DNA of 64,000 bases from a virus (taxonomy: Duplodnaviria; Caudoviricetes): positions 128,001 through 192,000 of the IMG/VR virus record IMGVR_UViG_2597490325_000001. The stretch is one strand, 5' to 3'. Position 1 is the first letter of the stretch, and every line of letters starts with the position of its first letter. The notes under the pieces were generated by a model. That model saw nothing but the letters and a program-made list of their open reading frames with translations, made no database searches and was not told the origin of the DNA. Below, piece after piece: positions 32,310 to 62,464 of the stretch. A program made the position numbers and the translations under genes.

Positions 32310-33719
32310 CTAGATTGATAAAGTAAATAATAAATTACCACAGTCATAAATTATACCATATCCATTATTGAGCATATTCTGTTGCTCTGATAATGATTCA
32401 TCAAAATTTTCTAATTTTTCACTAAGTAATCTCTTCTGGAAATTTGCTCTATGAAAAACTTGGCCGTAAAACTTATCCGTATACCAGTATCCTGGATTAG
32501 ATACTGATGTTAATTCGAAACCATTTTTAATATAAACTTCACCAAAAGAATATCTGAGATTAGCATAAGAAATAATAGAATTTATATTCAAGTTAGATTC
32601 TTTAAAATCTTTTATGGCGAAATTAAGCAATTTACTAAAACCACCAACTATATTAATATCTGAAATAGAAGCAAATCTTAATAATTCTAATGTATTTTCA
32701 TCATTTCTATTAAGTAATTTTCTAGTTTTGGAGAAGGTTATTACTGCACATAACTCATCTTCAAAGAATAATCCATAATTGAAGGATGCGTTACATTTAC
32801 CTTGCATATGATATGTATCTAAGAATACATTTGATTCTTTAGGGGTAATCTTTTTAACTGCACATTTGCGAGCAAAAATTTTATATGAATTGGCTTGTAA
32901 AAGGCTTTTTAGTCTAGATTTTAATTTTTTTCTAGTCCTAGCCCATTCACAGTCAAAAATATTATAAATTCTTATACCTTGATCATAAGCCTCCTCCATT
33001 TTTTCAAAAATATGATATTTTTTTCTAGCCCTATTAGTTTTATTTATACTATGCCAAAATATACCATTTACTTCTATACCAATCTTCATAGATGGTATGT
33101 ATATATCAATTTCTTTCCGTTTATCACTAGGAAGTAATCCTTTAACATTTTTTAAGATTTCAATATCATTTGGTAGAATTTTACGAATAAACATATAAAT
33201 TTCATTTTCTACTTTTGAATCACCATTACTTTTATTTTGATGGTGTAAATGAGGGGATCCATTACCCATCATCAGCTCTCTAGGTCGGATAAAAAATGGT
33301 TTACCAGTAGTTTTGCATATTACTTCAATTTTTGTATTTGTATCTTTATATTTAGATAGGCTAAAATCCATTTTGTCTTTTACAGAAGGATATTTAGCTT
33401 CTAATTTACTTACAAACGTTTCTAAAGAGAAACGTTGAGTATCAGCAGCTTTTTTATAACGGCAATGAGGGCATCCTGTTTTGATTTCTTTTTTACGTAC
33501 AGCTATAAGATTAGTAGGAGTCATCAAAAAAGATTTTTTACATTTATTGTGGATTACTTCTATTTTATCTTGTACCGATTTATATTTTATTGTAGGTGAT
33601 AAAGAGTATTCATTATTAATATTACACTCATTAAAGCTATCAATAAACTTATTCAAATTATTGATATAAATTTTTGATGAACTACCATCAGTTAATTCAT
33701 CAAATTTAGAAATTTGCAT
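32310..33719 (-). mobile_element. Free-standing Hef-like homing endonuclease (N-terminal Cys/His repeats, PD-(D/E)XK-type nuclease, C-terminal GNAT-like domain)
   Basis: GCPHC and YKDTNTKIEVIC repeats; EIDIYIPSMKIGIEVNGIFWH; ARKC..FLDTYHMQG..ELLRFAS..VGGFSKLL..SYANLRYS; more AT-rich codons than its neighbours. Confidence 0.8.
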
Positions 33720-33765
33720 AAAAACCTCTCATGAACAATTTAACTAATTTTATGTTCATGAGAGG
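33720..33765 (-). promoter_or_regulatory. Terminator/RBS-sequestering hairpin containing a late promoter
   Basis: Minus strand reads CCTCTCATGAACA-taaaattagttaaat-TGTTCATGAGAGG-TTTTT-ATG; AACA-TAAAAT-TAG at 33744-33756. Confidence 0.85.
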
Positions 33766-33792
33766 AGTTCATTAAGAAAATTTATGGAAATA

Positions 33793-35067
33793 TTATTTTG
33801 AGTTTATATCTTCTATATGATCAAAAATATCAAACTCTTTACCTTGTACTGACAAGTCATGGAAAGACTTCATCGAAAGGTTCATAATACGAGCCGAAAT
33901 ACGAGATACATGAAGACCGATATTTTTTACACCTAAACGATAGAACATATCACCTAAACAGTGGTGGCAATAATGTTTATTTTGACATAGTAAAGGTGTA
34001 CGCATCTTAACCGTTTTACCAACATACTTCTCTAGCAATGCAGGAGTTAGACATACTAATTCATTCTTATCGTAGATGTAACGGTAGCGATATTCACGCT
34101 TATTGTCACCAGTAAGCTCTACGTTAATAGTTTTAGTAGTTCCGCAATCACTATCAGGTTTATCGGCAATAATACCACTAAATGCAGCGTTAAACAGCTT
34201 GGTTAAGTAACCACCTTTTTGGGTATCAACTGCACGTCCAGCAGCACCTAATACTGCTAGGTCAGCATGAGGAGCAATATCTTCTTTAGCTACACCATCC
34301 ATAAGGTTAGAAGTAACGATACTAAAGGATGTAGGGTCATCAGATTTAGGGGCAATTCCACGGAAAATAGAGTTTACTTTAAAGTTGTTATTCCATGAAC
34401 CGTTAAACCCGCTATCATAGATCATTTTACCTGTAGCACCTATTTCTTCTAGGTCTTTTTTGGCAAAATCAATCATTTCATTCTCTAGTTTACCAAATGC
34501 CATCACATCATTACTTTCAATAACCTCACGGTTATCTTTAAGCATCTGATCACGTTTTTTCTTAACTTTCTCAGAAGGATGAATTGTTTTAATATCTAGA
34601 CTAGGAATAGAATAAATAGCGGAAGTGTAGCCTAACCATTGCATTCTATCAATGAAATCTTTAACGACATCGGATAAAATGTATTTATCTACATATGCAT
34701 CAGAGATAACACGGTTTAACCCACCAATCACACCAGCAGTGGTAGGTTTATTGATATATTCTAGAATAGTCGCCAAATGAGAATTCTCAATGCCGTTAAT
34801 TGTACCTTTTGCAGAGCCAATAAAAACGTTAAAAACGATTCTACCAGCATTGGTCTCGGTACCTACAATATCTTTCCAGTTTTTAAACTTTCTAAGAATT
34901 GAATCGGCGGGAACTAGAGATTCTTCGATTTTGATACGAGTACGACTATCCATGACAGGTTTATTTGTGGCTGCATCAACCGCAAATACATTTAGGAGAA
35001 AACTTTTAGTAATATCTTCTTCAGTAATCCCTAAAATTGTCTTTTCTGGATCATTTATATCAAACAT
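33793..35067 (-). CDS. rpoC: RNA polymerase beta' C-terminal chain (probably virion RNAP)
   Basis: MIYDSG..GS, bridge helix GAAGRAVDTQKGGYLTKLF, DCGT, RTPLLC..YCHHCLG Zn site, NIG..SMKSFH. Confidence 0.9.
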   Translation of the reverse strand: MFDINDPEKTILGITEEDITKSFLLNVFAVDAATNKPVMDSRTRIKIEESLVPADSILRKFKNWKDIVGTETNAGRIVFNVFIGSAKGTINGIENSHLATILEYINKPTTAGVIGGLNRVISDAYVDKYILSDVVKDFIDRMQWLGYTSAIYSIPSLDIKTIHPSEKVKKKRDQMLKDNREVIESNDVMAFGKLENEMIDFAKKDLEEIGATGKMIYDSGFNGSWNNNFKVNSIFRGIAPKSDDPTSFSIVTSNLMDGVAKEDIAPHADLAVLGAAGRAVDTQKGGYLTKLFNAAFSGIIADKPDSDCGTTKTINVELTGDNKREYRYRYIYDKNELVCLTPALLEKYVGKTVKMRTPLLCQNKHYCHHCLGDMFYRLGVKNIGLHVSRISARIMNLSMKSFHDLSVQGKEFDIFDHIEDINSK

Positions 35068-35098
35068 TTTCTATGTTCCGAAGAAAAAGAAATAAATA

Positions 35099-35125
35099 CG
35101 CCTATGACCGTGAAGATCATAGGCG
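35099..35125 (-). terminator. Intrinsic terminator
   Basis: CGCCTATGA-tcttcacgg-TCATAGGCG then TATTTATTTCTTTTT on the minus strand. Confidence 0.8.
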
Positions 35126-35172
35126 CAGGACTTTATTTTCTATCAGTGATCCAATGAAAGTATTTCTTAGTA

Positions 35173-35268
35173 TTAATCGTCGTCAGAATCTCCACCACCT
35201 ACAGGGAGAAATGAGTCAAACCATGAGATAAGATTTTTATTTTCATTGGAAGAGATAGAGTTATTCAT
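35173..35268 (-). CDS. 31-aa microprotein MNNSISSNENKNLISWFDSFLPVGGGDSDDD
   Basis: Translated by hand; AGGCTAA upstream, like the RBS region of the 24506 gene; below the ORF-track cutoff. Confidence 0.45.
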   Translation of the reverse strand: MNNSISSNENKNLISWFDSFLPVGGGDSDDD

Positions 35269-35326
35269 TCTTATTAGCCTGAGTTGATGCTTGGTAATAA
35301 GAACAGATTGATCTACAACGAGACCG

Positions 35327-35342
35327 CATTAAAATAATATAT
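35327..35342 (-). promoter_or_regulatory. Early-type promoter
   Basis: ATATATTAT-TTTAA-TG; the only minus-strand copy found. Confidence 0.75.
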
Positions 35343-35351
35343 CTTTGAAGA

Positions 35352-36038
35352 TTATGCGTATACGTAGTATTCTACAATCAGACCTTTACCAGTTTCTGCT
35401 GATAGAGGTTCTGTTTCAAAGGTAATACGGGAGAAGATTTTAATGTCGTTATAAGTATTATCTGAAGGCACTACTGCGGAGAATAGGCCAAGTTCAGAAA
35501 TACGTGAACCACGGGCATCTTTCTCGTTAATAGTCAGAGTAGCTTTAACGTAGTAGTCATCTTTAACTGTATCAGTAATCAATTCAACCTTAGTAAAGGT
35601 TTTCTTCATATACTGAGTATCGGAACCACTAACCTTAGTATCGGTATAGAAGTTAGCATCTTCTGAAGGCATAGGGTTAGCAGTGTTAGCAATACGGAAT
35701 GGCACTGCAGTGTTAAGCTGAGTATCTGCTGAAGTAGGAGTGATAGGGTTGAATGGATCAGATACAGGAGCACCGCCACTACCGATACCGAACAGACATA
35801 CATAGCGATTATGTAGAAGAGTTTCGTTCTCTGAGCTATAAGGAAGCTTAAACAGTTTACGCAGAGTGAATTCACGACCAGTCTGAACTACAAGGTTTCT
35901 TTTAACTTGCAAAATATTATTAGTGACGGGATCACGAATAACAATAAAGTTTTCACGAGCCTTATTAGCACGAACAGCATCCTGAATCAGTAATTTTTCA
36001 TCGTGTGTCATGACACGCTGAGAATCAATTTCAAACAT
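35352..36038 (-). CDS. Baseplate / tail-fibre attachment protein
   Basis: NLVVQTGRE..FGIGSG..ISELGLFS..FSRITF pattern typical of collar/fibre N-terminal domains. Confidence 0.65.
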   Translation of the reverse strand: MFEIDSQRVMTHDEKLLIQDAVRANKARENFIVIRDPVTNNILQVKRNLVVQTGREFTLRKLFKLPYSSENETLLHNRYVCLFGIGSGGAPVSDPFNPITPTSADTQLNTAVPFRIANTANPMPSEDANFYTDTKVSGSDTQYMKKTFTKVELITDTVKDDYYVKATLTINEKDARGSRISELGLFSAVVPSDNTYNDIKIFSRITFETEPLSAETGKGLIVEYYVYA

Positions 36039-36065
36039 TGTTAAATTCCTATTTATGATATAGAA

Positions 36066-36078
36066 CTAAAAGTTTGTT
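36066..36078 (-). promoter_or_regulatory. Late-type promoter
   Basis: AACA-AACTTT-TAG. Confidence 0.8.
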
Positions 36079-36088
36079 GAGGAAGATC

Positions 36089-38683
36089 TTAATCTTCACC
36101 AGTAACCGTTATTACAAAATTATCCTGCATTAACATTTTAGATTTAACTGGTAATGAGGTAATGGGAACGGCTTTCTCTGAGCCAAAATCTGGTAGAGCG
36201 TCTATATAAAAGTTACCTTTTGTAGATTTAATAACTTCTTTCAATACATTGTATTCCTTAATAGAGTAATTAGCTAATTTCTTTTTAAATACGTCATTAA
36301 AGTTAATTTTATTCACACTATCCATAAATGACGAATAAGTCTGGAAATCTCTTAATTTAGCATTTTTATCATAGATGTGATATGTGGAATTAGGAACAAA
36401 ATTGTCATCAATTTCTAAGGTATCTGTAGAGAAATCATTATTATGGTAAGTAGTGTTAATTACCGGATAATCTCTTACAAATACAGTATCAAACTGATTA
36501 AAATATGAATTAGCTACCTTGATTTGATCGTACATATTGAACTTAATACTATCTTTCATAGTAAAAGTACCGTACCTTACCAAATCATCATGAATATTCA
36601 CTCTATCAAAGAGGTTAAACCATTTATTACTGTAAATGAAATCATAGAAGTAATCACCTTTAGGAATATAATCTCTTAATGGTAATACACTTATATTACG
36701 GAAACTATCTCGAAGATGTAAAATTTCTTTATAATGGAAATCGGCATTAAATACTTGCTTATCCTTGAAATAAATCCAGTCAGTAGTAACCTGTTTACCT
36801 AAGTAAGTAAAGATACTAGTAATATCATGTAAATGAACTTTATCATAATAATGGAAATTTCCTAAGAATACATATCTATCCCAAGTAGCACCAGTAACAT
36901 GGTCTTCAATGGGAATAATACTATCCATAGATTCCACACCGTCGAATATACGACCGTCTAGTTCTTCTTTAAGCACCATGAAAAAACTAAGTTCTCTAAG
37001 AGTTACAGTAAATGACTTAAATACTTCGATTACGTCTCTAAGATAACTGGAAAGGATATCTACAGATGTAGAACCAAAGAATAAATCCATATCATTGAGA
37101 TATGACTTAACTACATCAGTTACATACGTAATTTCACGTTCTATCTCAATTTGTCTTTCTTCAGGGTCTTCAATATTGCGAATAGCGTTAATGAAATTAT
37201 AAATGTCAATATTACGACTTAAAATGTAGTCTGTATAGGTTTCAGCTTTATTGAAGAGAGAATAATTAAGTTTTTGAGTAAAACGGGCATAATAAATCTG
37301 TTTTAACTGTTTATAGCGTTTATAATCAGTTTCAGTATGCAAAGCATCTTTGATATTAGAGTGGATACCAATATTGTAATCAAATACCTCTAAAGTTTTT
37401 TCCTTATCAAAAGAAGTTTCTTTAGTCATATCCTTAACTGGATATAAGTTAGGGTCTACTGGCTTGGTATTAACTATATCTACTGGATAGGTTATAGTAC
37501 CACTTCTATCTTTAAATTGATAGATGGATACAATATTCTCTAAATCATATTCAATGGTATCTACTACACCTTGATAATCGAGAGTCAAGATTTGTAAAAG
37601 AACTAAAGTATCTTCTAGAGTAATTGGATCCAAAGATATCTTAGATGCAGTAAAAGTCATGAATTCTTTACTACTATAACTTTCACGAATTTTACGTAAT
37701 AAATTTAAGAGATAAACTGTATTGAGACCTTCTTTAGCTAATTCAAAGCCTGACTCAATGGAGAAGTATTTAGATTGGACATAATCAAAATTGTATCTAG
37801 CAATTTCTGTATTAGTCGTTCTCCAAGTATCATCTCCAAGAGTTACATCAGCAATGGTGTTATCATTATAATCACCAGCTTTAATAGCTTTAGATAATGA
37901 ATCAATACGGATATTATGAGAGATAAAACGAGGGTTATTGATGATAGTGTTTGTACCATCAGTTTCCTTACGAGTCTCATCTCTTACTAAATAGTATTTA
38001 AAAATATTAATATTATCGAAATTAAAAATATCAAGAATATTAATAATAACTTTATCAGTACCCTTGTTTCTTATAAGCGAATTGATATTTTTTGCAATTT
38101 TCTGCTTATACTGTAAAGGTACTGATTTAAAATAACTGATACCGAATGACAAGATAAAATCATCAATCATTGATTCATTCATCATATCAATATCATATGG
38201 ATACTTCAACCAGTTATCAATGTAGTTAATTAATGCCATGATATTAATTGACATTAAACAGAAGTTTCTATAATTCTCTTCCGTTTCCATTGATTTAGCA
38301 TAGTTGGTAGCGTAGAAGTACGTTAAACACTTCTTATAAATTGGCCCATACTGACTTAGGTATGGATATGTAGTTTCCATATCACTATCAGTATAGATAA
38401 TATCTAAGTCTTTTGCTCTTCGACTAGTATAATATGGAATCTGATAAGTATCAAAAAGATTCTTATAGTAAGGGTTTAATTCTACATAATCATTGATGAT
38501 CTGCTGTCGTTCAGCTTCTGTATGATTATCCATTTTTAAATAAGCTGCCATATATTCTGAAGAGGCTTTCATAGAATTTTCAGTCTCTTGAGAATCAGCA
38601 GATAATTCATCTTTAAATACCATCTTGATAATATATTGAACTAGATTTTCAATATACTCAAGGGTATTATCATTTATTTTCAT
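36089..38683 (-). CDS. Baseplate wedge protein (gp7 / P2 I-like) with repetitive D-rich C-terminus
   Basis: 864 aa; DIDMM..FILSFG..KNINSLIRNKGT motif. Confidence 0.65.
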   Translation of the reverse strand: MKINDNTLEYIENLVQYIIKMVFKDELSADSQETENSMKASSEYMAAYLKMDNHTEAERQQIINDYVELNPYYKNLFDTYQIPYYTSRRAKDLDIIYTDSDMETTYPYLSQYGPIYKKCLTYFYATNYAKSMETEENYRNFCLMSINIMALINYIDNWLKYPYDIDMMNESMIDDFILSFGISYFKSVPLQYKQKIAKNINSLIRNKGTDKVIINILDIFNFDNINIFKYYLVRDETRKETDGTNTIINNPRFISHNIRIDSLSKAIKAGDYNDNTIADVTLGDDTWRTTNTEIARYNFDYVQSKYFSIESGFELAKEGLNTVYLLNLLRKIRESYSSKEFMTFTASKISLDPITLEDTLVLLQILTLDYQGVVDTIEYDLENIVSIYQFKDRSGTITYPVDIVNTKPVDPNLYPVKDMTKETSFDKEKTLEVFDYNIGIHSNIKDALHTETDYKRYKQLKQIYYARFTQKLNYSLFNKAETYTDYILSRNIDIYNFINAIRNIEDPEERQIEIEREITYVTDVVKSYLNDMDLFFGSTSVDILSSYLRDVIEVFKSFTVTLRELSFFMVLKEELDGRIFDGVESMDSIIPIEDHVTGATWDRYVFLGNFHYYDKVHLHDITSIFTYLGKQVTTDWIYFKDKQVFNADFHYKEILHLRDSFRNISVLPLRDYIPKGDYFYDFIYSNKWFNLFDRVNIHDDLVRYGTFTMKDSIKFNMYDQIKVANSYFNQFDTVFVRDYPVINTTYHNNDFSTDTLEIDDNFVPNSTYHIYDKNAKLRDFQTYSSFMDSVNKINFNDVFKKKLANYSIKEYNVLKEVIKSTKGNFYIDALPDFGSEKAVPITSLPVKSKMLMQDNFVITVTGED

Positions 38684-60370: not shown

Positions 60371-62464
60371 ATGGCTGATAAAATCATTGTACGTTATAAG
60401 GATACCCCTTATACTGTAAAAACTCTTTTAGATTTTCTTTCAGAATGTGCCAAAGTATATTATAGTACTGGTAAAAGAAAAATAAGTGATGAAGTTTTTG
60501 ATAAACTTCAACTTGTTTATGAAAAGCATTCTGGTAAAAGACTTCCAGTTGGTGGTAAAGTTGATGTAGGTAATACTCTTAGCTTAAGCCACTCATATGA
60601 GGACTTTGCTGGTACTCTTTTCAAGACTAAATCACCGGAAGAGGTCTACGACTGGATGAGGCGAAAAGGTATCAAACCTTCAAAAGCTGGAGTCCAGATC
60701 GCACTTAGTCTAAAAGCTGACGGTCATTCTATCACGGTAGAAACTAAGTATAACAAGAAAACTAAAGAACAGTATATACATAAAGCTCTTACCCGTGGTA
60801 AAGATGGCGTAGGTAAAGATCTCACTCCTATTTTTAAAGAATACGAACATTTACTTTACCTTCCAGTTATTGATGGAAAAAATTATGCTGTAGGTTATGA
60901 AGCAGTAATGACTTATAGTAATTTTACATTGTTCCATGAACAAGAAAAAGAAACATTTAACAATCCTCGTTCTATCATAGGCGCTATCCTATCAGATAGA
61001 GGTAATCAGTATTTTCCATATATTAATCTCATTGCTCTCAGGATTAAGACTGAAGATGATGAGCTTAGTCGTATTGATGCATTGGAGTATATTAATGAGA
61101 TTAATGAATCTCAGAATGAAGAAATTGATTTCGGTTTTTGGGTGGGTGAATTAACCAATAAAAAGAATAAAGGATATATGCTTGGTGGCGATGATTATAA
61201 GGATTTCAATGAAGCCTTAGAAGATTTCTATCAATGTGTAATTCAAAATCGTGAAGAAATTGATATCATGATTGATGGGGTAGTAATTGAGGTTCTTAAT
61301 GAAGATAAACGTCGTTCATTAGGTTACTCTGATTATGAACCTAACTTTGCAGCGGCTCTTAAATTCCCTCCAGCTGAAAAAGAAACTACCGTCGAAGATG
61401 TTAAATGGTCTGTAGAAGGTAAGTCTGGACGTTACACTCCAGTAGTGCATTTTAAACCAGTTAGTATTGATAATAACTCATACGTTAAAGTATCTCTTGC
61501 TAACTATAAACGGTTTAAGAATCTAAATCTTCATAAAGGTGATTCAATCTTATTTACTAGACGTAATGATGTATTAGGTTATGTTGATAAATTAGATGAA
61601 GATGCACCACCTAAAGGTGAAGCTTTTAAAGCTCCTAAGTTTTGTATTCATTGTGGAGAATCTTTAGCAGTAGTAAGTGCATATTTAGAATGCGTAAATC
61701 CGGCTTGTAAAACTAACGAGCTTGGTAATATTCTCAAGTTTATCGATGTACTCAATCTTAAGTTTATTGGTAGGAAAACGATAGAAAAACTATATGATAA
61801 TAAAATCATTAGTAAGTTCTCTGACTTCTTTGAATTAACTGATAAAGATTTTAAGAAAATTAAGTCCATTGATGGACTTGGAAATCATGTAATTAAGCTT
61901 ATTAATCAGTTAGTAGATAAGCTCAGTAATGAAGAAACTCCCGATTATCTATTCCTTGGGGCGTTCAATATCCCGTTGATCAGAGATGGTCGAGCTGAGA
62001 AGATCTTAAAAGGTATTACCCTTCCAGAGATTATTGATCTTATTGACTCTAAAGATAATGAGGCTATTTACCGAATCCTTTCTAATACTAATAATATTGG
62101 TATTAAGATTGTAGATGAACTGGCTAAAGCTTTAGGGGATGAAGGATATTATCGAAATGAATTAGGTATTCTATATGAGAATATGAATATCATTGATTCA
62201 AAGATTGATCAATCATCTTTAGGTAAAGATTTTGTATCTTTGACTTTCGTTCATACTGGTAGCGCTAAGCCACTGAAAACTAGGGATGAACTTAAACGCA
62301 TTATTTCTAGTAAAGGTCATAATTTAGTAGGAAGTGTTTCCAATAAGACAAACTATCTCATAAATAATGACGTAAATTCCACTACTGATAAGAATAAGAA
62401 AGCTAAAGAGCTTGGTATTCCAATCATTACTGTGGAAGAATTTGTGGCAATGATGAATGGCTAA
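60371..62464 (+). CDS. ligA: NAD-dependent DNA ligase
   Basis: YY..G...ISDEVFD, KADG active-site motif, ALTRGKDG.G, IDGVV, AALKFP, CIHC...C....C Zn finger, HhH, C-terminal BRCT (HTGS..GSVSNKTNYLI..KAKELGIPII). Confidence 0.95.
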   Translation: MADKIIVRYKDTPYTVKTLLDFLSECAKVYYSTGKRKISDEVFDKLQLVYEKHSGKRLPVGGKVDVGNTLSLSHSYEDFAGTLFKTKSPEEVYDWMRRKGIKPSKAGVQIALSLKADGHSITVETKYNKKTKEQYIHKALTRGKDGVGKDLTPIFKEYEHLLYLPVIDGKNYAVGYEAVMTYSNFTLFHEQEKETFNNPRSIIGAILSDRGNQYFPYINLIALRIKTEDDELSRIDALEYINEINESQNEEIDFGFWVGELTNKKNKGYMLGGDDYKDFNEALEDFYQCVIQNREEIDIMIDGVVIEVLNEDKRRSLGYSDYEPNFAAALKFPPAEKETTVEDVKWSVEGKSGRYTPVVHFKPVSIDNNSYVKVSLANYKRFKNLNLHKGDSILFTRRNDVLGYVDKLDEDAPPKGEAFKAPKFCIHCGESLAVVSAYLECVNPACKTNELGNILKFIDVLNLKFIGRKTIEKLYDNKIISKFSDFFELTDKDFKKIKSIDGLGNHVIKLINQLVDKLSNEETPDYLFLGAFNIPLIRDGRAEKILKGITLPEIIDLIDSKDNEAIYRILSNTNNIGIKIVDELAKALGDEGYYRNELGILYENMNIIDSKIDQSSLGKDFVSLTFVHTGSAKPLKTRDELKRIISSKGHNLVGSVSNKTNYLINNDVNSTTDKNKKAKELGIPIITVEEFVAMMNG

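What the first reader, a model, noticed from the sequence alone, without database searches (positions are those of the whole stretch)
35068..35342. Hidden early transcription unit: structured RNA with a 31-aa ORF and terminator in front of the virion RNAP beta'-C gene
Seen in a 284-nt gap within a late region: a perfect early promoter (35327-35342, minus); a stem TTCTTATTA...TAATAAGAA enclosing the RBS; ORF 35268-35173 (MNNSISSNENKNLISWFDSFLPVGGGDSDDD); long-range pairing of TCTATC..TCCAATGAAA in the ORF with TTTCATTGGA..GATAGA after it; a TCTCC/GGAGA hairpin; and a terminator (35099-35125). The beta'-C gene starts ~30 nt later with no canonical late promoter (only AACA-TAGAAA-ATG overlapping its start). 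Inference, three alternatives: a leader-peptide attenuator or antitermination switch timing vRNAP synthesis; a dual-function sRNA; or a translationally locked mRNA, as in type I toxin loci, for an acidic-tailed microprotein.
Basis: partly seen in the sequence, partly recalled or inferred. Interest (0 to 1): 0.8.

Follow-up and report, generated by a model that had tools for sequence, protein, structure and literature searches.

The report
Small early gene before phage polymerase gene
The gap holds a real, conserved but already annotated tiny early gene of a giant uracil-DNA phage, with its own promoter and terminator, and nothing shows it to be a regulatory switch for the polymerase gene behind it.

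Summary
The unit is not hidden. The genome is collinear with Yersinia phage phiR1-37. The 31-aa ORF is already a public protein, evidently the published g232. The promoter was predicted in print and was listed as unverified by RNA-seq.

New here:
- The promoter points towards g232 and g231.
- A relative whose beta'-C protein is only 50% identical keeps the same plan: early promoter, a 59-nt leader with a 5' hairpin, a hairpin over the start codon, a homologous 29-aa ORF and a terminator. A third lineage keeps a looser version.
- All 7 substitutions in near-identical relatives are harmless, and 3 of 3 in the ORF are synonymous.
- The genome uses an AR9-type late promoter, AACA-N6-TAG. g233 and g230 have one. 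g231 has none.
- No antiterminator pairing exists.
- A terminator followed closely by a promoter-less gene is common here (24 of 46).

Best reading: a small early, or continuously expressed, microprotein gene. Its leaky terminator also lowers read-through into the virion polymerase beta'-C gene. This is constitutive attenuation, not a switch. Interest is modest.

The parts
35327..35346 (-). Early (virion-RNAP type) promoter. A-rich lead-in, core TATATTAT at 35341-35334, spacer tttaa, TG at 35328-35327. The predicted +1 is G at 35327.
   Evidence: Sequence. AR9 consensus (PMC5312081). Genome-wide matrix score 25.1 bits, rank 26 of 57. Same element at the same place in L006 and L025. Published as a predicted promoter, unverified by RNA-seq.
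35310..35325 (-). 5'-proximal hairpin GGUCU(cguugu)AGAUC, starting at +3 of the predicted RNA.
   Evidence: MFE; -3.5 kcal/mol, 8th of 46 early leaders. L006 has AAUCU(caauggu)AGAUU and L025 has CUUAU(gauguua)AUAAG at the same place. That is two compensatory pair changes between this phage and L006. The T>C change at 35318 in L005 falls in the loop.
35268..35303 (-). Hairpin over the ribosome-binding region and the A of the start codon (UUCUUAUUA ... UAAUAAGAA).
   Evidence: 9 of 9 complementary; -9.0 kcal/mol. Mean pairing probability of -15..+3 is 0.75; only 0.85% of 352 genes are as paired. L006 has an analogous -8.5 kcal/mol hairpin that pairs CCAU with AUGG. It is not seen in L025.
35173..35268 (-). 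ORF of 31 aa plus stop: MNNSISSNENKNLISWFDSFLPVGGGDSDDD. It is the published tiny gene g232.
   Evidence: ORF list. The exact peptide is in NCBI and nr. 3 of 3 substitutions in relatives are synonymous. The homologous 29-aa ORF in L006 gives local alignment score 45, shuffle p = 0.0012, with in-frame indels.
35238..35259 (-). 5' strand of the long-range helix (UCUAUC ... UCCAAUGAAA), inside the ORF.
   Evidence: Specific to this lineage; not present in L006.
35139..35162 (-). 3' strand of the long-range helix (UUUCAUUGGA ... GAUAGA), in the 3' untranslated part.
35189..35209 (-). Small UCUCC/GGAGA hairpin inside the ORF.
   Evidence: MFE. The two substitutions that touch it (35203 T>C, 35191 A>G) keep the pairs.
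35081..35127 (-). Intrinsic terminator. Stem-loop at 35127-35097, interrupted U-tract at 35096-35081.
   Evidence: 13 pairs, 6 G-C, loop 5. -19.7 kcal/mol. The C>T change at 35112 in relatives lies in the loop. L006 has a different terminator at the same place.
35074..35077 (-). Lone AACA 10 nt before the g231 start. It is wrongly placed for the genome's late promoter.
   Evidence: The late consensus AACA-N6-TAG gives leaders of 15-45 nt. The genome shows no peak of AACA at -9 to -13.
33793..35067 (-). g231, the virion RNAP beta' C-terminal part. It has no promoter of its own.
   Evidence: No early or late motif within 140 nt upstream apart from the g232 promoter. Published as a virion structural protein with constitutive expression.
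36067..36078 (-). Late promoter AACAaactttTAG of g233. It should also transcribe g232 late in infection.
   Evidence: The same motif stands before the g233 homologues in L006 and L025.

Best explanation
The gap holds a small, conserved protein-coding gene, g232 of a phiR1-37-type phage.

Early in infection, the injected virion RNA polymerase starts at G 35327. It makes an RNA of about 240 nt with four parts:
- a 59-nt leader with a 5' stem-loop (inferred role: stability);
- a hairpin that partly hides the ribosome-binding site and start codon (inferred role: low or conditional translation);
- the 31-codon ORF;
- an intrinsic terminator.

Late in infection the same ORF is also carried on the g233 mRNA, which starts at the AACA-N6-TAG promoter at 36078-36067.

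The terminator ends most of both transcripts. The virion polymerase beta'-C gene g231 begins 29 nt behind it and has no promoter of its own. g231 is therefore made from the fraction that reads through. This would place g231 in the 'continuously expressed' class (early plus late promoter upstream), at a level set by a fixed, leaky terminator.

Shown: the sequence elements, their conservation, and the missing g231 promoter. Inferred: promoter activity, translation of the ORF, and partial termination. The peptide's own function is unknown. My guess is a small early accessory protein.
For: 1. The promoter matches the phage's own early consensus at every invariant position. It faces g232 and g231.
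2. Architecture is conserved in L006/L020, where beta'-C is 50% and g233 59% identical. There the promoter is cattgaCATATTATtttatTG. The leader is exactly 59 nt. A 5' hairpin carries compensatory changes. A hairpin covers the start codon. A 29-aa ORF and a terminator follow, and the beta'-C start comes about 30 nt later.
3. Peptide homology: local alignment score 45, reached by 0.12% of 5000 shuffles. The DNA alignment gap is 15 nt, so in frame.
4. L025-L027 (47% identical) keep early promoters directly after g233, a +1 GC, a 5' hairpin and a 34-aa ORF with DDWW.
5. In L004 and L005 (97-99% identical) all 7 substitutions in the unit are harmless. By chance 0.51 of transitions would be, giving p = 0.0085. 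In the ORF 3 of 3 are synonymous, p = 0.034.
6. Late promoter AACA-N6-TAG: 42 of 353 genes carry it with a 15-45-nt leader, against 1.4 expected and 5 in the antisense control. g233 and g230 have it; g231 does not.
7. Published data (PMC4848604, text and Table S2): g231 is 'constitutive' by RNA-seq and Northern blot, while g233 is late. My arithmetic on the reads per nt gives 0.55 for g233 and 1.52 for g231 early, and 1.41 and 1.91 late. Extra transcripts therefore arise between the two genes.
8. RNA-library contigs of about 20 kb in runs X1, X2 and X5 run unbroken through the gap and terminator. This shows presence only.
Against: - The published RNA-seq lists this promoter as 'unverified' and states that no reads aligned to g232. 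I take the second point to be a counting artefact of 90-nt reads on a 96-nt feature. Nineteen genes share it, and several of them sit beside genes with thousands of reads. This is inference.
- The published time course separates early from late poorly. The major capsid gene already shows 41% of its late level early, so the g231/g233 contrast is weak.
- The Shine-Dalgarno match is poor (AGG, 9 nt before ATG) and buried in a hairpin.
- The third-lineage peptide is not significantly similar (p = 0.28-0.56).
- Only three lineages exist, so covariation is anecdotal.
- In L006 an AACA-N6-TGT motif lies inside the terminator hairpin. That relative may give beta'-C its own late promoter.
- In AR9 the orthologue g264 is a purely late gene.
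Confidence: 0.55

Rival explanations
1. The unit's product is an RNA: an early small regulatory RNA, possibly dual-function. The ORF is incidental or secondary.
For: - The start region is more paired than in 99% of the genome's genes.
- The 5' hairpin is conserved with compensatory changes.
- A 10-nt block, TGGTTTGACT, is identical between this phage and L006.
- One other early promoter in this genome (G000 206872, plus strand) is followed by a terminator after 116 nt with no ORF of 20 aa or more. Short early RNAs may therefore exist here.
- The published study found 10 unannotated RNAs in this phage.
Against: - Outside the terminator the fold is not exceptional: z = -1.8 here and -2.1 in L006.
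- The internal helices differ between lineages.
- The indel is in frame, the peptides are significantly similar, and 3 of 3 substitutions are synonymous.
- No complement of the conserved block occurs elsewhere in the genome.
- No Rfam match.
Confidence: 0.15
2. The promoter is silent or negligible. The hairpin is simply the terminator of the late g233 transcript. The ORF is an annotation artefact.
For: - The promoter is 'unverified' and g232 has no counted reads in the published RNA-seq.
- +2 is C here, against A in 31 of 41 sites, and the upstream T-tract is weak.
- AR9 virion RNAP is reported to be very sensitive to deviations from consensus.
- By my estimate, an ATG-started ORF of 30 codons in 240 AT-rich nt is not rare.
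Against: - Promoter, leader length, ORF and terminator are retained at 50% protein divergence. Early promoters stand at the same spot in a third lineage.
- The peptides are homologous.
- Substitutions are all harmless.
- Published reads rise between g233 and g231.
Confidence: 0.12
3. A regulated leader: translation of the 31-codon ORF, or a factor, switches the terminator off to time synthesis of the virion polymerase subunit.
For: - The order is leader ORF, then terminator, then a promoter-less gene.
- Both homologous peptides are rich in Asn (5 of 31 and 6 of 29).
- The 5' arm of the start hairpin has an alternative partner at the ORF's end, 18 nt at 72% (I2).
Against: - Nothing upstream pairs with the terminator's 5' arm better than chance: 95 of 300 shuffles do as well here, and 175 of 300 in L006.
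- The stop-to-terminator distance is 45 nt here and 6 nt in L006.
- 24 of 46 co-directional intergenic terminators in this genome precede a promoter-less gene, mostly within 10-40 nt. The arrangement is generic.
Confidence: 0.06
4. A type I toxin-like locus: a translationally locked mRNA for a toxic small peptide, held in check by an antisense RNA.
For: - The start codon is sequestered.
- A sigma-70-like promoter lies on the opposite strand at 35308-35335. The published table lists a 'Sigma antisense promoter (unverified)' here.
Against: - The peptide is polar and acidic, with no hydrophobic stretch long enough for a membrane helix (sequence).
- The published strand-specific RNA-seq did not confirm the postulated antisense RNA.
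- The acidic tail is absent in L006.
Confidence: 0.03

Closest known systems
AR9 / phiR1-37 early promoters and 'continuously expressed' genes (early plus late promoter upstream; Lavysh et al. 2017, PMC5312081, passages read)
   Same: The core TATATTAT, the 6-nt distance to G+1 and the AT-rich lead-in are the same. An early promoter sits inside a late cluster. The late motif AACA-N6-T-A/G is also present in this genome.
   Different: In AR9 all virion RNAP subunit genes, including the orthologue g264, are late. Here an early promoter stands upstream of the orthologue, separated from it by a tiny ORF and a strong terminator.
Operon-internal partial terminator before RNA polymerase genes (rplL-rpoB attenuator of E. 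coli; recalled, no call)
   Same: An abundant structural gene comes first, then a terminator, then a polymerase subunit gene without its own promoter. Dosage would be set by read-through.
   Different: Read-through is not measured here. The polymerases are phage-encoded. An extra promoter and ORF lie between the upstream gene and the terminator.
Leader-peptide transcription attenuators (trp, his type; recalled)
   Same: A short ORF is followed by an intrinsic terminator ahead of the regulated gene.
   Different: There is no antiterminator alternative. The spacing to the terminator varies between lineages. No run of regulatory codons is conserved across the three lineages.
Type I toxin-antitoxin mRNAs (hok/sok, tisB/istR; recalled)
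   Same: A small ORF with a sequestered start region and a stable, structured mRNA.
   Different: The peptide is not hydrophobic. No antisense RNA was detected in the published data.

Membership tests
Virion-RNAP early promoter of AR9/phiR1-37-type phages | Core TATATTAT with an A just upstream and an AT-rich lead-in | tested here: met
   gaTATATTAT at 35343-35334. All invariant matrix positions match.
Virion-RNAP early promoter of AR9/phiR1-37-type phages | T-G with G as +1, six nt after the core | tested here: met
   tttaaTG, with G at 35327.
Virion-RNAP early promoter of AR9/phiR1-37-type phages | A primary transcript 5' end at +1 early in infection | not testable with these tools
   Published RNA-seq lists the site as unverified. 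Only contigs of the RNA runs were available, and these cannot show ends.
Intrinsic (factor-independent) terminator | G+C-rich stem, short loop, U-rich tail directly behind | tested here: met
   13 pairs, 6 G-C, loop 5, tail TTTATTTCTT; -19.7 kcal/mol. The tail is interrupted by A and C.
Intrinsic (factor-independent) terminator | RNA 3' ends at the U-tract in vivo | not testable with these tools
   No end-resolved data were available.
Leader-peptide attenuator | An alternative (antiterminator) pairing that competes with the terminator's 5' arm | tested here: not met
   The best duplex is -9.6 kcal/mol, against a shuffle mean of -8.9; 95 of 300 shuffles do as well. In L006 it is -5.8 against -6.2, and 175 of 300 do as well.
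Leader-peptide attenuator | Conserved geometry between the leader stop codon and the terminator | tested here: not met
   45 nt here and 6 nt in L006.
Type I toxin | A small hydrophobic, membrane-active peptide | tested here: not met
   The sequence is polar and acidic. The longest uncharged stretch, LISWF, is too short.
Type I toxin | A cis- or trans-encoded antisense RNA | tested here: inconclusive
   A sigma-70-like site lies on the plus strand. The published RNA-seq did not confirm an antisense RNA here.
Any Rfam RNA family | A covariance-model match | tested here: not met
   No relevant hit up to E = 10 in 33000-37000. None in L006 or L025 up to E = 1.
Conserved protein-coding small ORF | Homologous ORF in diverged relatives, frame-preserving indels, excess of synonymous change | tested here: met
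   Limits: only two lineages are clearly homologous, and only 3 substitutions fall in the ORF.

The most novel reading that the evidence does not exclude
The g232-type microprotein is a dedicated partner of the virion RNA polymerase beta'-C subunit, for example an assembly, packaging or activity modulator. Alternatively its RNA is such a partner. Either way it has been kept next to that gene across the phiR1-37 clade. The unit would then let the phage make a virion-polymerase subunit from the first minutes of infection, unlike AR9, where all virion polymerase genes are strictly late.
Probability: 0.1. Interest if true: 0.6.

Novelty: new member of a known kind. Interest (0 to 1): 0.3.

Why it matters
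The result explains, with a testable model, why the virion polymerase gene g231 of phiR1-37 appears 'constitutive' in published Northern and RNA-seq data. It corrects the direction in which a published 'unverified' promoter should be read. It shows that a 31-codon ORF that gathered no read counts is conserved in distant uncultured relatives. As a by-product, phiR1-37 turns out to use the AR9-type late promoter AACA-N6-TAG. The two transcriptome papers I read reported no late consensus for this phage. None of this is a new kind of mechanism.

Tried and rejected
- Near-identity DNA search of the phage collection found nothing. The closest named phages are only about 33% identical in beta'-C.
- A look-up of the phage's record by an accession number recalled from memory failed. 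The 2012 genome paper is not held, so its words on g232, g233 and the antisense RNA are known only through the paper that cites it.
- Scans for more relatives gave limited returns. The metagenome scan gave 14 loci. Viral scans gave 17, 3 and 5 loci, all on the same few contigs for the close clade. The genome-contig scan gave none. Only three lineages carry the g233-gap-g231 junction. Twelve more distant loci show no comparable small ORF or promoter upstream of the beta'-C gene.
- L025, L026 and L027 are 99.8% identical in the gap and add no substitutions.
- The protein atlas returned no usable look-alike for the peptide. The scan's earlier notes held nothing.
- Leaderless late mRNA from the AACA 10 nt before the ATG was rejected. 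The genome has no peak of AACA at -9 to -13, and only this gene and two irrelevant cases show it.
- Remnant of a mobile homing-endonuclease element was rejected. A 3%-diverged relative (run X6) keeps the gap but diverges right after g231, so it lacks g230 there. L006 has the unit and no g230 homologue.
- A 5' hairpin as a general property of early transcripts was rejected. The mean is -1.5 kcal/mol against -1.1 for random 24-mers.
- Laying RNA runs gave contigs only. They show no ends, no strand and no levels. The table of differences for run X6 was cut before the gap.
That question is left open.
- The idea that the acidic peptide inhibits uracil-DNA glycosylase has no support. No homologue of a known inhibitor had been found in phiR1-37 as of 2013 (PMC3794593, passage). 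However, the acidic tail is not conserved in L006.
- My first terminator script was too strict and missed the known site. It was replaced.

Full report
WHAT THE GENOME IS

The window is bases 128,001-192,000 of a 262,391-bp virus record with 32.5% G+C. The phiR1-37 RNA-seq paper gives the same genome length. Its coordinates for unannotated RNAs fit this record. One example is 'misc_8, 160,970-161,280, antisense to g230'. Another is 'misc_4, 61,640-61,936, between g099 and g100', which falls in a gap of my gene map (PMC4848604, passages and table; map). I therefore use that paper's gene names:
- g230: homing endonuclease, window 32310-33719.
- g231: 33793-35067.
- g232: in the gap.
- g233: 35352-36038.
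- g234: 36089-38683.

All are on the minus strand.

g231 matches PHROG 2962, 'RNA polymerase beta subunit'. Its best AR9 match is g264, annotated as a virion RNAP subunit. A profile of 25 homologues matches bacterial beta' at about residues 704-919. The paper lists g231 as a virion structural protein.

THE OBSERVATION

All listed elements are present; the coordinates are given under the observation check and parts.

- The early promoter matches the AR9 consensus AAATATATATTAT-(6N)-G+1 (PMC5312081, passages). It also matches this genome's own consensus. TATATTAT occurs 57 times on the plus strand and 26 times on the minus strand. Of these, 41 sites have TG five nt later. A matrix built from those 41 sites scores this one 25.1 bits, rank 26 of 57 above 14 bits. 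The site itself is among the 41.
- The motif reads on the minus strand, so it faces g232 and g231.
- The terminator is strong.
- The whole unit folds better than all 200 shuffles (z = -3.15). Without the terminator z is only -1.82, and 10 of 200 shuffles do as well.

NOT HIDDEN

- The exact 31-aa peptide is in NCBI and nr on a 262,391-nt contig.
- Table S2 of PMC4848604 (supplement file 1, part 2) lists g232 between g231 and g233. Beside it stand a 'PHIRE promoter (unverified)' and a 'Sigma antisense promoter (unverified)'.
- The arrows printed there (PHIRE '->', sigma '<-') are the reverse of what the sequence shows. The phage-type motif is on the minus strand. The sigma-70-like site, TTGATC-16-TAAAAT at 35308-35335, is on the plus strand.
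- The text says that a previously postulated RNA antisense to g233 was not confirmed.
- The text also says that no reads aligned to 19 genes, including g232. Reads were 90 nt and g232 is 96 nt. Several of the 19 lie between genes with thousands of reads. I take the zero as a counting artefact; this is inference.
- RNA-library contigs of about 20 kb in three runs cross the gap unbroken. This shows presence, not transcription.

CONSERVATION

Close relatives (L004/L019 and L005, 97-99% identical) differ from the window at 7 places in the unit:
- the loop of the 5' hairpin (35318);
- the loop of the start hairpin (35287);
- three third-codon positions (35251, 35203, 35191), all synonymous;
- one unpaired 3' UTR base (35163);
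- the terminator loop (35112).

If transitions fell at random, 0.51 would be harmless, giving p = 0.0085 for 7 of 7. For the ORF alone, 0.32 would be synonymous, giving p = 0.034 for 3 of 3. For the non-coding part alone the result is not significant (p = 0.21).

The next relatives are far away: about 50% identity in beta'-C. L006/L020 keeps the gene order g234-g233-gap-g231. Its 243-nt gap repeats the plan:
- promoter cattgaCATATTATtttatTG; three of the five early-type sites in that locus use CATATTAT;
- a leader of exactly 59 nt;
- a hairpin at +3, AAUCU/AGAUU against GGUCU/AGAUC here;
- a hairpin of -8.5 kcal/mol that pairs the AUG;
- a 29-aa ORF, MVNNYSNKMNFNVKSTCNVDWFDFSPIKG;
- a different terminator of -16.6 kcal/mol;
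- the beta'-C start about 30 nt further on.

The two peptides align with score 45, reached by 6 of 5000 composition-preserving shuffles. The DNA alignment places a single 15-nt gap in the ORF. The internal helices of the ORF region are not shared.

L025-L027 (47% identical) have an 870-nt gap with:
- two perfect early promoters directly behind g233;
- a +1 GC and a 5' hairpin on the second promoter;
- a 34-aa ORF ending DDWWQALR, which is not significantly similar (p = 0.28-0.56);
- about 420 nt without an ORF of 60 aa or more or any Rfam or tRNA hit;
- then a hairpin and the beta'-C start.

Twelve more distant loci show nothing comparable.

THE DOWNSTREAM GENE HAS NO PROMOTER

- AACA-N6-T[AG] is enriched upstream of genes, at 1.79 per kb against 0.53 per kb genome-wide. 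Of 76 hits, 42 give leaders of 20-39 nt.
- The sites share AACA-N6-TAG. 42 of 353 genes carry it with a 15-45-nt leader. 1.4 are expected, and the antisense control gives 5.
- g233 has it (36078-36067). g230 has it too (33756-33745), inside a -19.5 kcal/mol hairpin with a T-run.
- g231 has none within 140 nt. Its AACA sits 10 nt before the ATG, and the genome shows no peak there.
- g231 must therefore be transcribed through the terminator, from the g233 late promoter and from the g232 early promoter.
- The gene calls behind these counts are my own crude ones: ATG starts, 40 aa or more, greedy choice.

HOW SPECIAL THE ARRANGEMENT IS

- Of 46 early promoters of 18 bits or more, only this one (228 nt) and one at genome 206,872 (116 nt) have a terminator within 500 nt. 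It is the shortest coding early unit.
- Of 46 terminators (dG -12 or lower) between co-directional genes, 24 are followed by a gene with no early or late motif in between, usually 10-40 nt away. A promoter-less gene just behind a hairpin is therefore ordinary in this phage.

NO SWITCH

The terminator's 5' arm finds no upstream partner better than shuffled sequence. Here 95 of 300 shuffles do as well, and in L006 175 of 300. The distance from stop codon to terminator is 45 nt here and 6 nt in L006.

The start region is unusually closed. Its pairing probability is 0.75, and only 0.85% of 352 genes are as paired.

PUBLISHED EXPRESSION

g231 is 'constitutive' by RNA-seq and, as that paper reports, by earlier Northern blots. 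g233 is late. Dividing the published total reads by gene length gives:
- early: 0.55 per nt for g233 and 1.52 for g231;
- late: 1.41 for g233 and 1.91 for g231.

Transcripts are therefore added between the two genes, more so early. The time course is blurred. The major capsid gene shows 41% of its late level early, and the AR9 authors suggest the infections may not have been synchronous. In AR9 all virion polymerase genes, including g264, are late.

VERDICT

The unit is real and conserved, but already annotated. The best reading (0.55) is a small early or continuous microprotein gene. Its leaky terminator also sets the dose of the promoter-less virion polymerase gene. This resembles the attenuator before rpoB in E. 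coli, which I cite from memory. The rivals are an RNA-level function (0.15), a silent promoter (0.12), a regulated leader (0.06) and a toxin-like locus (0.03).

Noticed in passing
whole genome G000; examples at window 36078-36067 and 33756-33745: An AR9-type late promoter motif, AACA-N6-TAG, stands 15-45 nt before 42 of 353 gene starts (1.4 expected; antisense control 5). The phiR1-37 RNA-seq paper reported no new conserved motif, and the AR9 paper says that study gave no late consensus. One search of the held library (terms R1-37, AACA, late promoter) found no paper reporting it.
   Followed up: partly
window 33725-33765 (minus): Between g231 and the homing endonuclease gene g230 lies a -19.5 kcal/mol hairpin with a T-run. 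It ends 6 nt before the g230 start and carries the g230 late promoter in its 5' arm and loop. It is a combined terminator-promoter module. Only 2 of 161 terminators in the genome contain the motif. L006 has AACA-N6-TGT inside the terminator before its beta'-C gene.
   Followed up: partly
window 33806 and lower: A relative with 3% divergence (run X6, one contig) matches from 36100 down to 33806 and then continues with unrelated sequence. It appears to lack g230 behind g231. This fits g230 being a mobile homing endonuclease gene.
   Followed up: no
L027:4620-4834: The beta'-C homologue of one relative is interrupted by a group I intron (Rfam RF00028, 89.6 bits, E = 1.2e-23). The near-identical L025 and L026 lack it.
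   Followed up: partly
L025:3440-3860: About 420 nt lie between the small ORF and the beta'-C gene with no ORF of 60 aa or more, no Rfam family and no tRNA. It is unexplained.
   Followed up: partly
G000:C1:206872-206990 (outside the window): A good early promoter (25.7 bits) is followed after 116 nt by a -18.4 kcal/mol terminator, with no ATG ORF of 20 aa or more. It is a candidate short early non-coding RNA.
   Followed up: no
whole genome G000: 24 of 46 strong terminators between co-directional genes are followed, mostly within 10-40 nt, by a gene with no recognisable early or late promoter. Read-through or RNA processing seems to be a general feature of this phage's operons.
   Followed up: no
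window 35308-35335 (plus) and 35327-35346 (minus): The arrows for the two predicted promoters between g232 and g233 in the published Table S2 are the reverse of the strands on which the motifs lie. This may be why the phage-type promoter stayed 'unverified'.
   Followed up: partly
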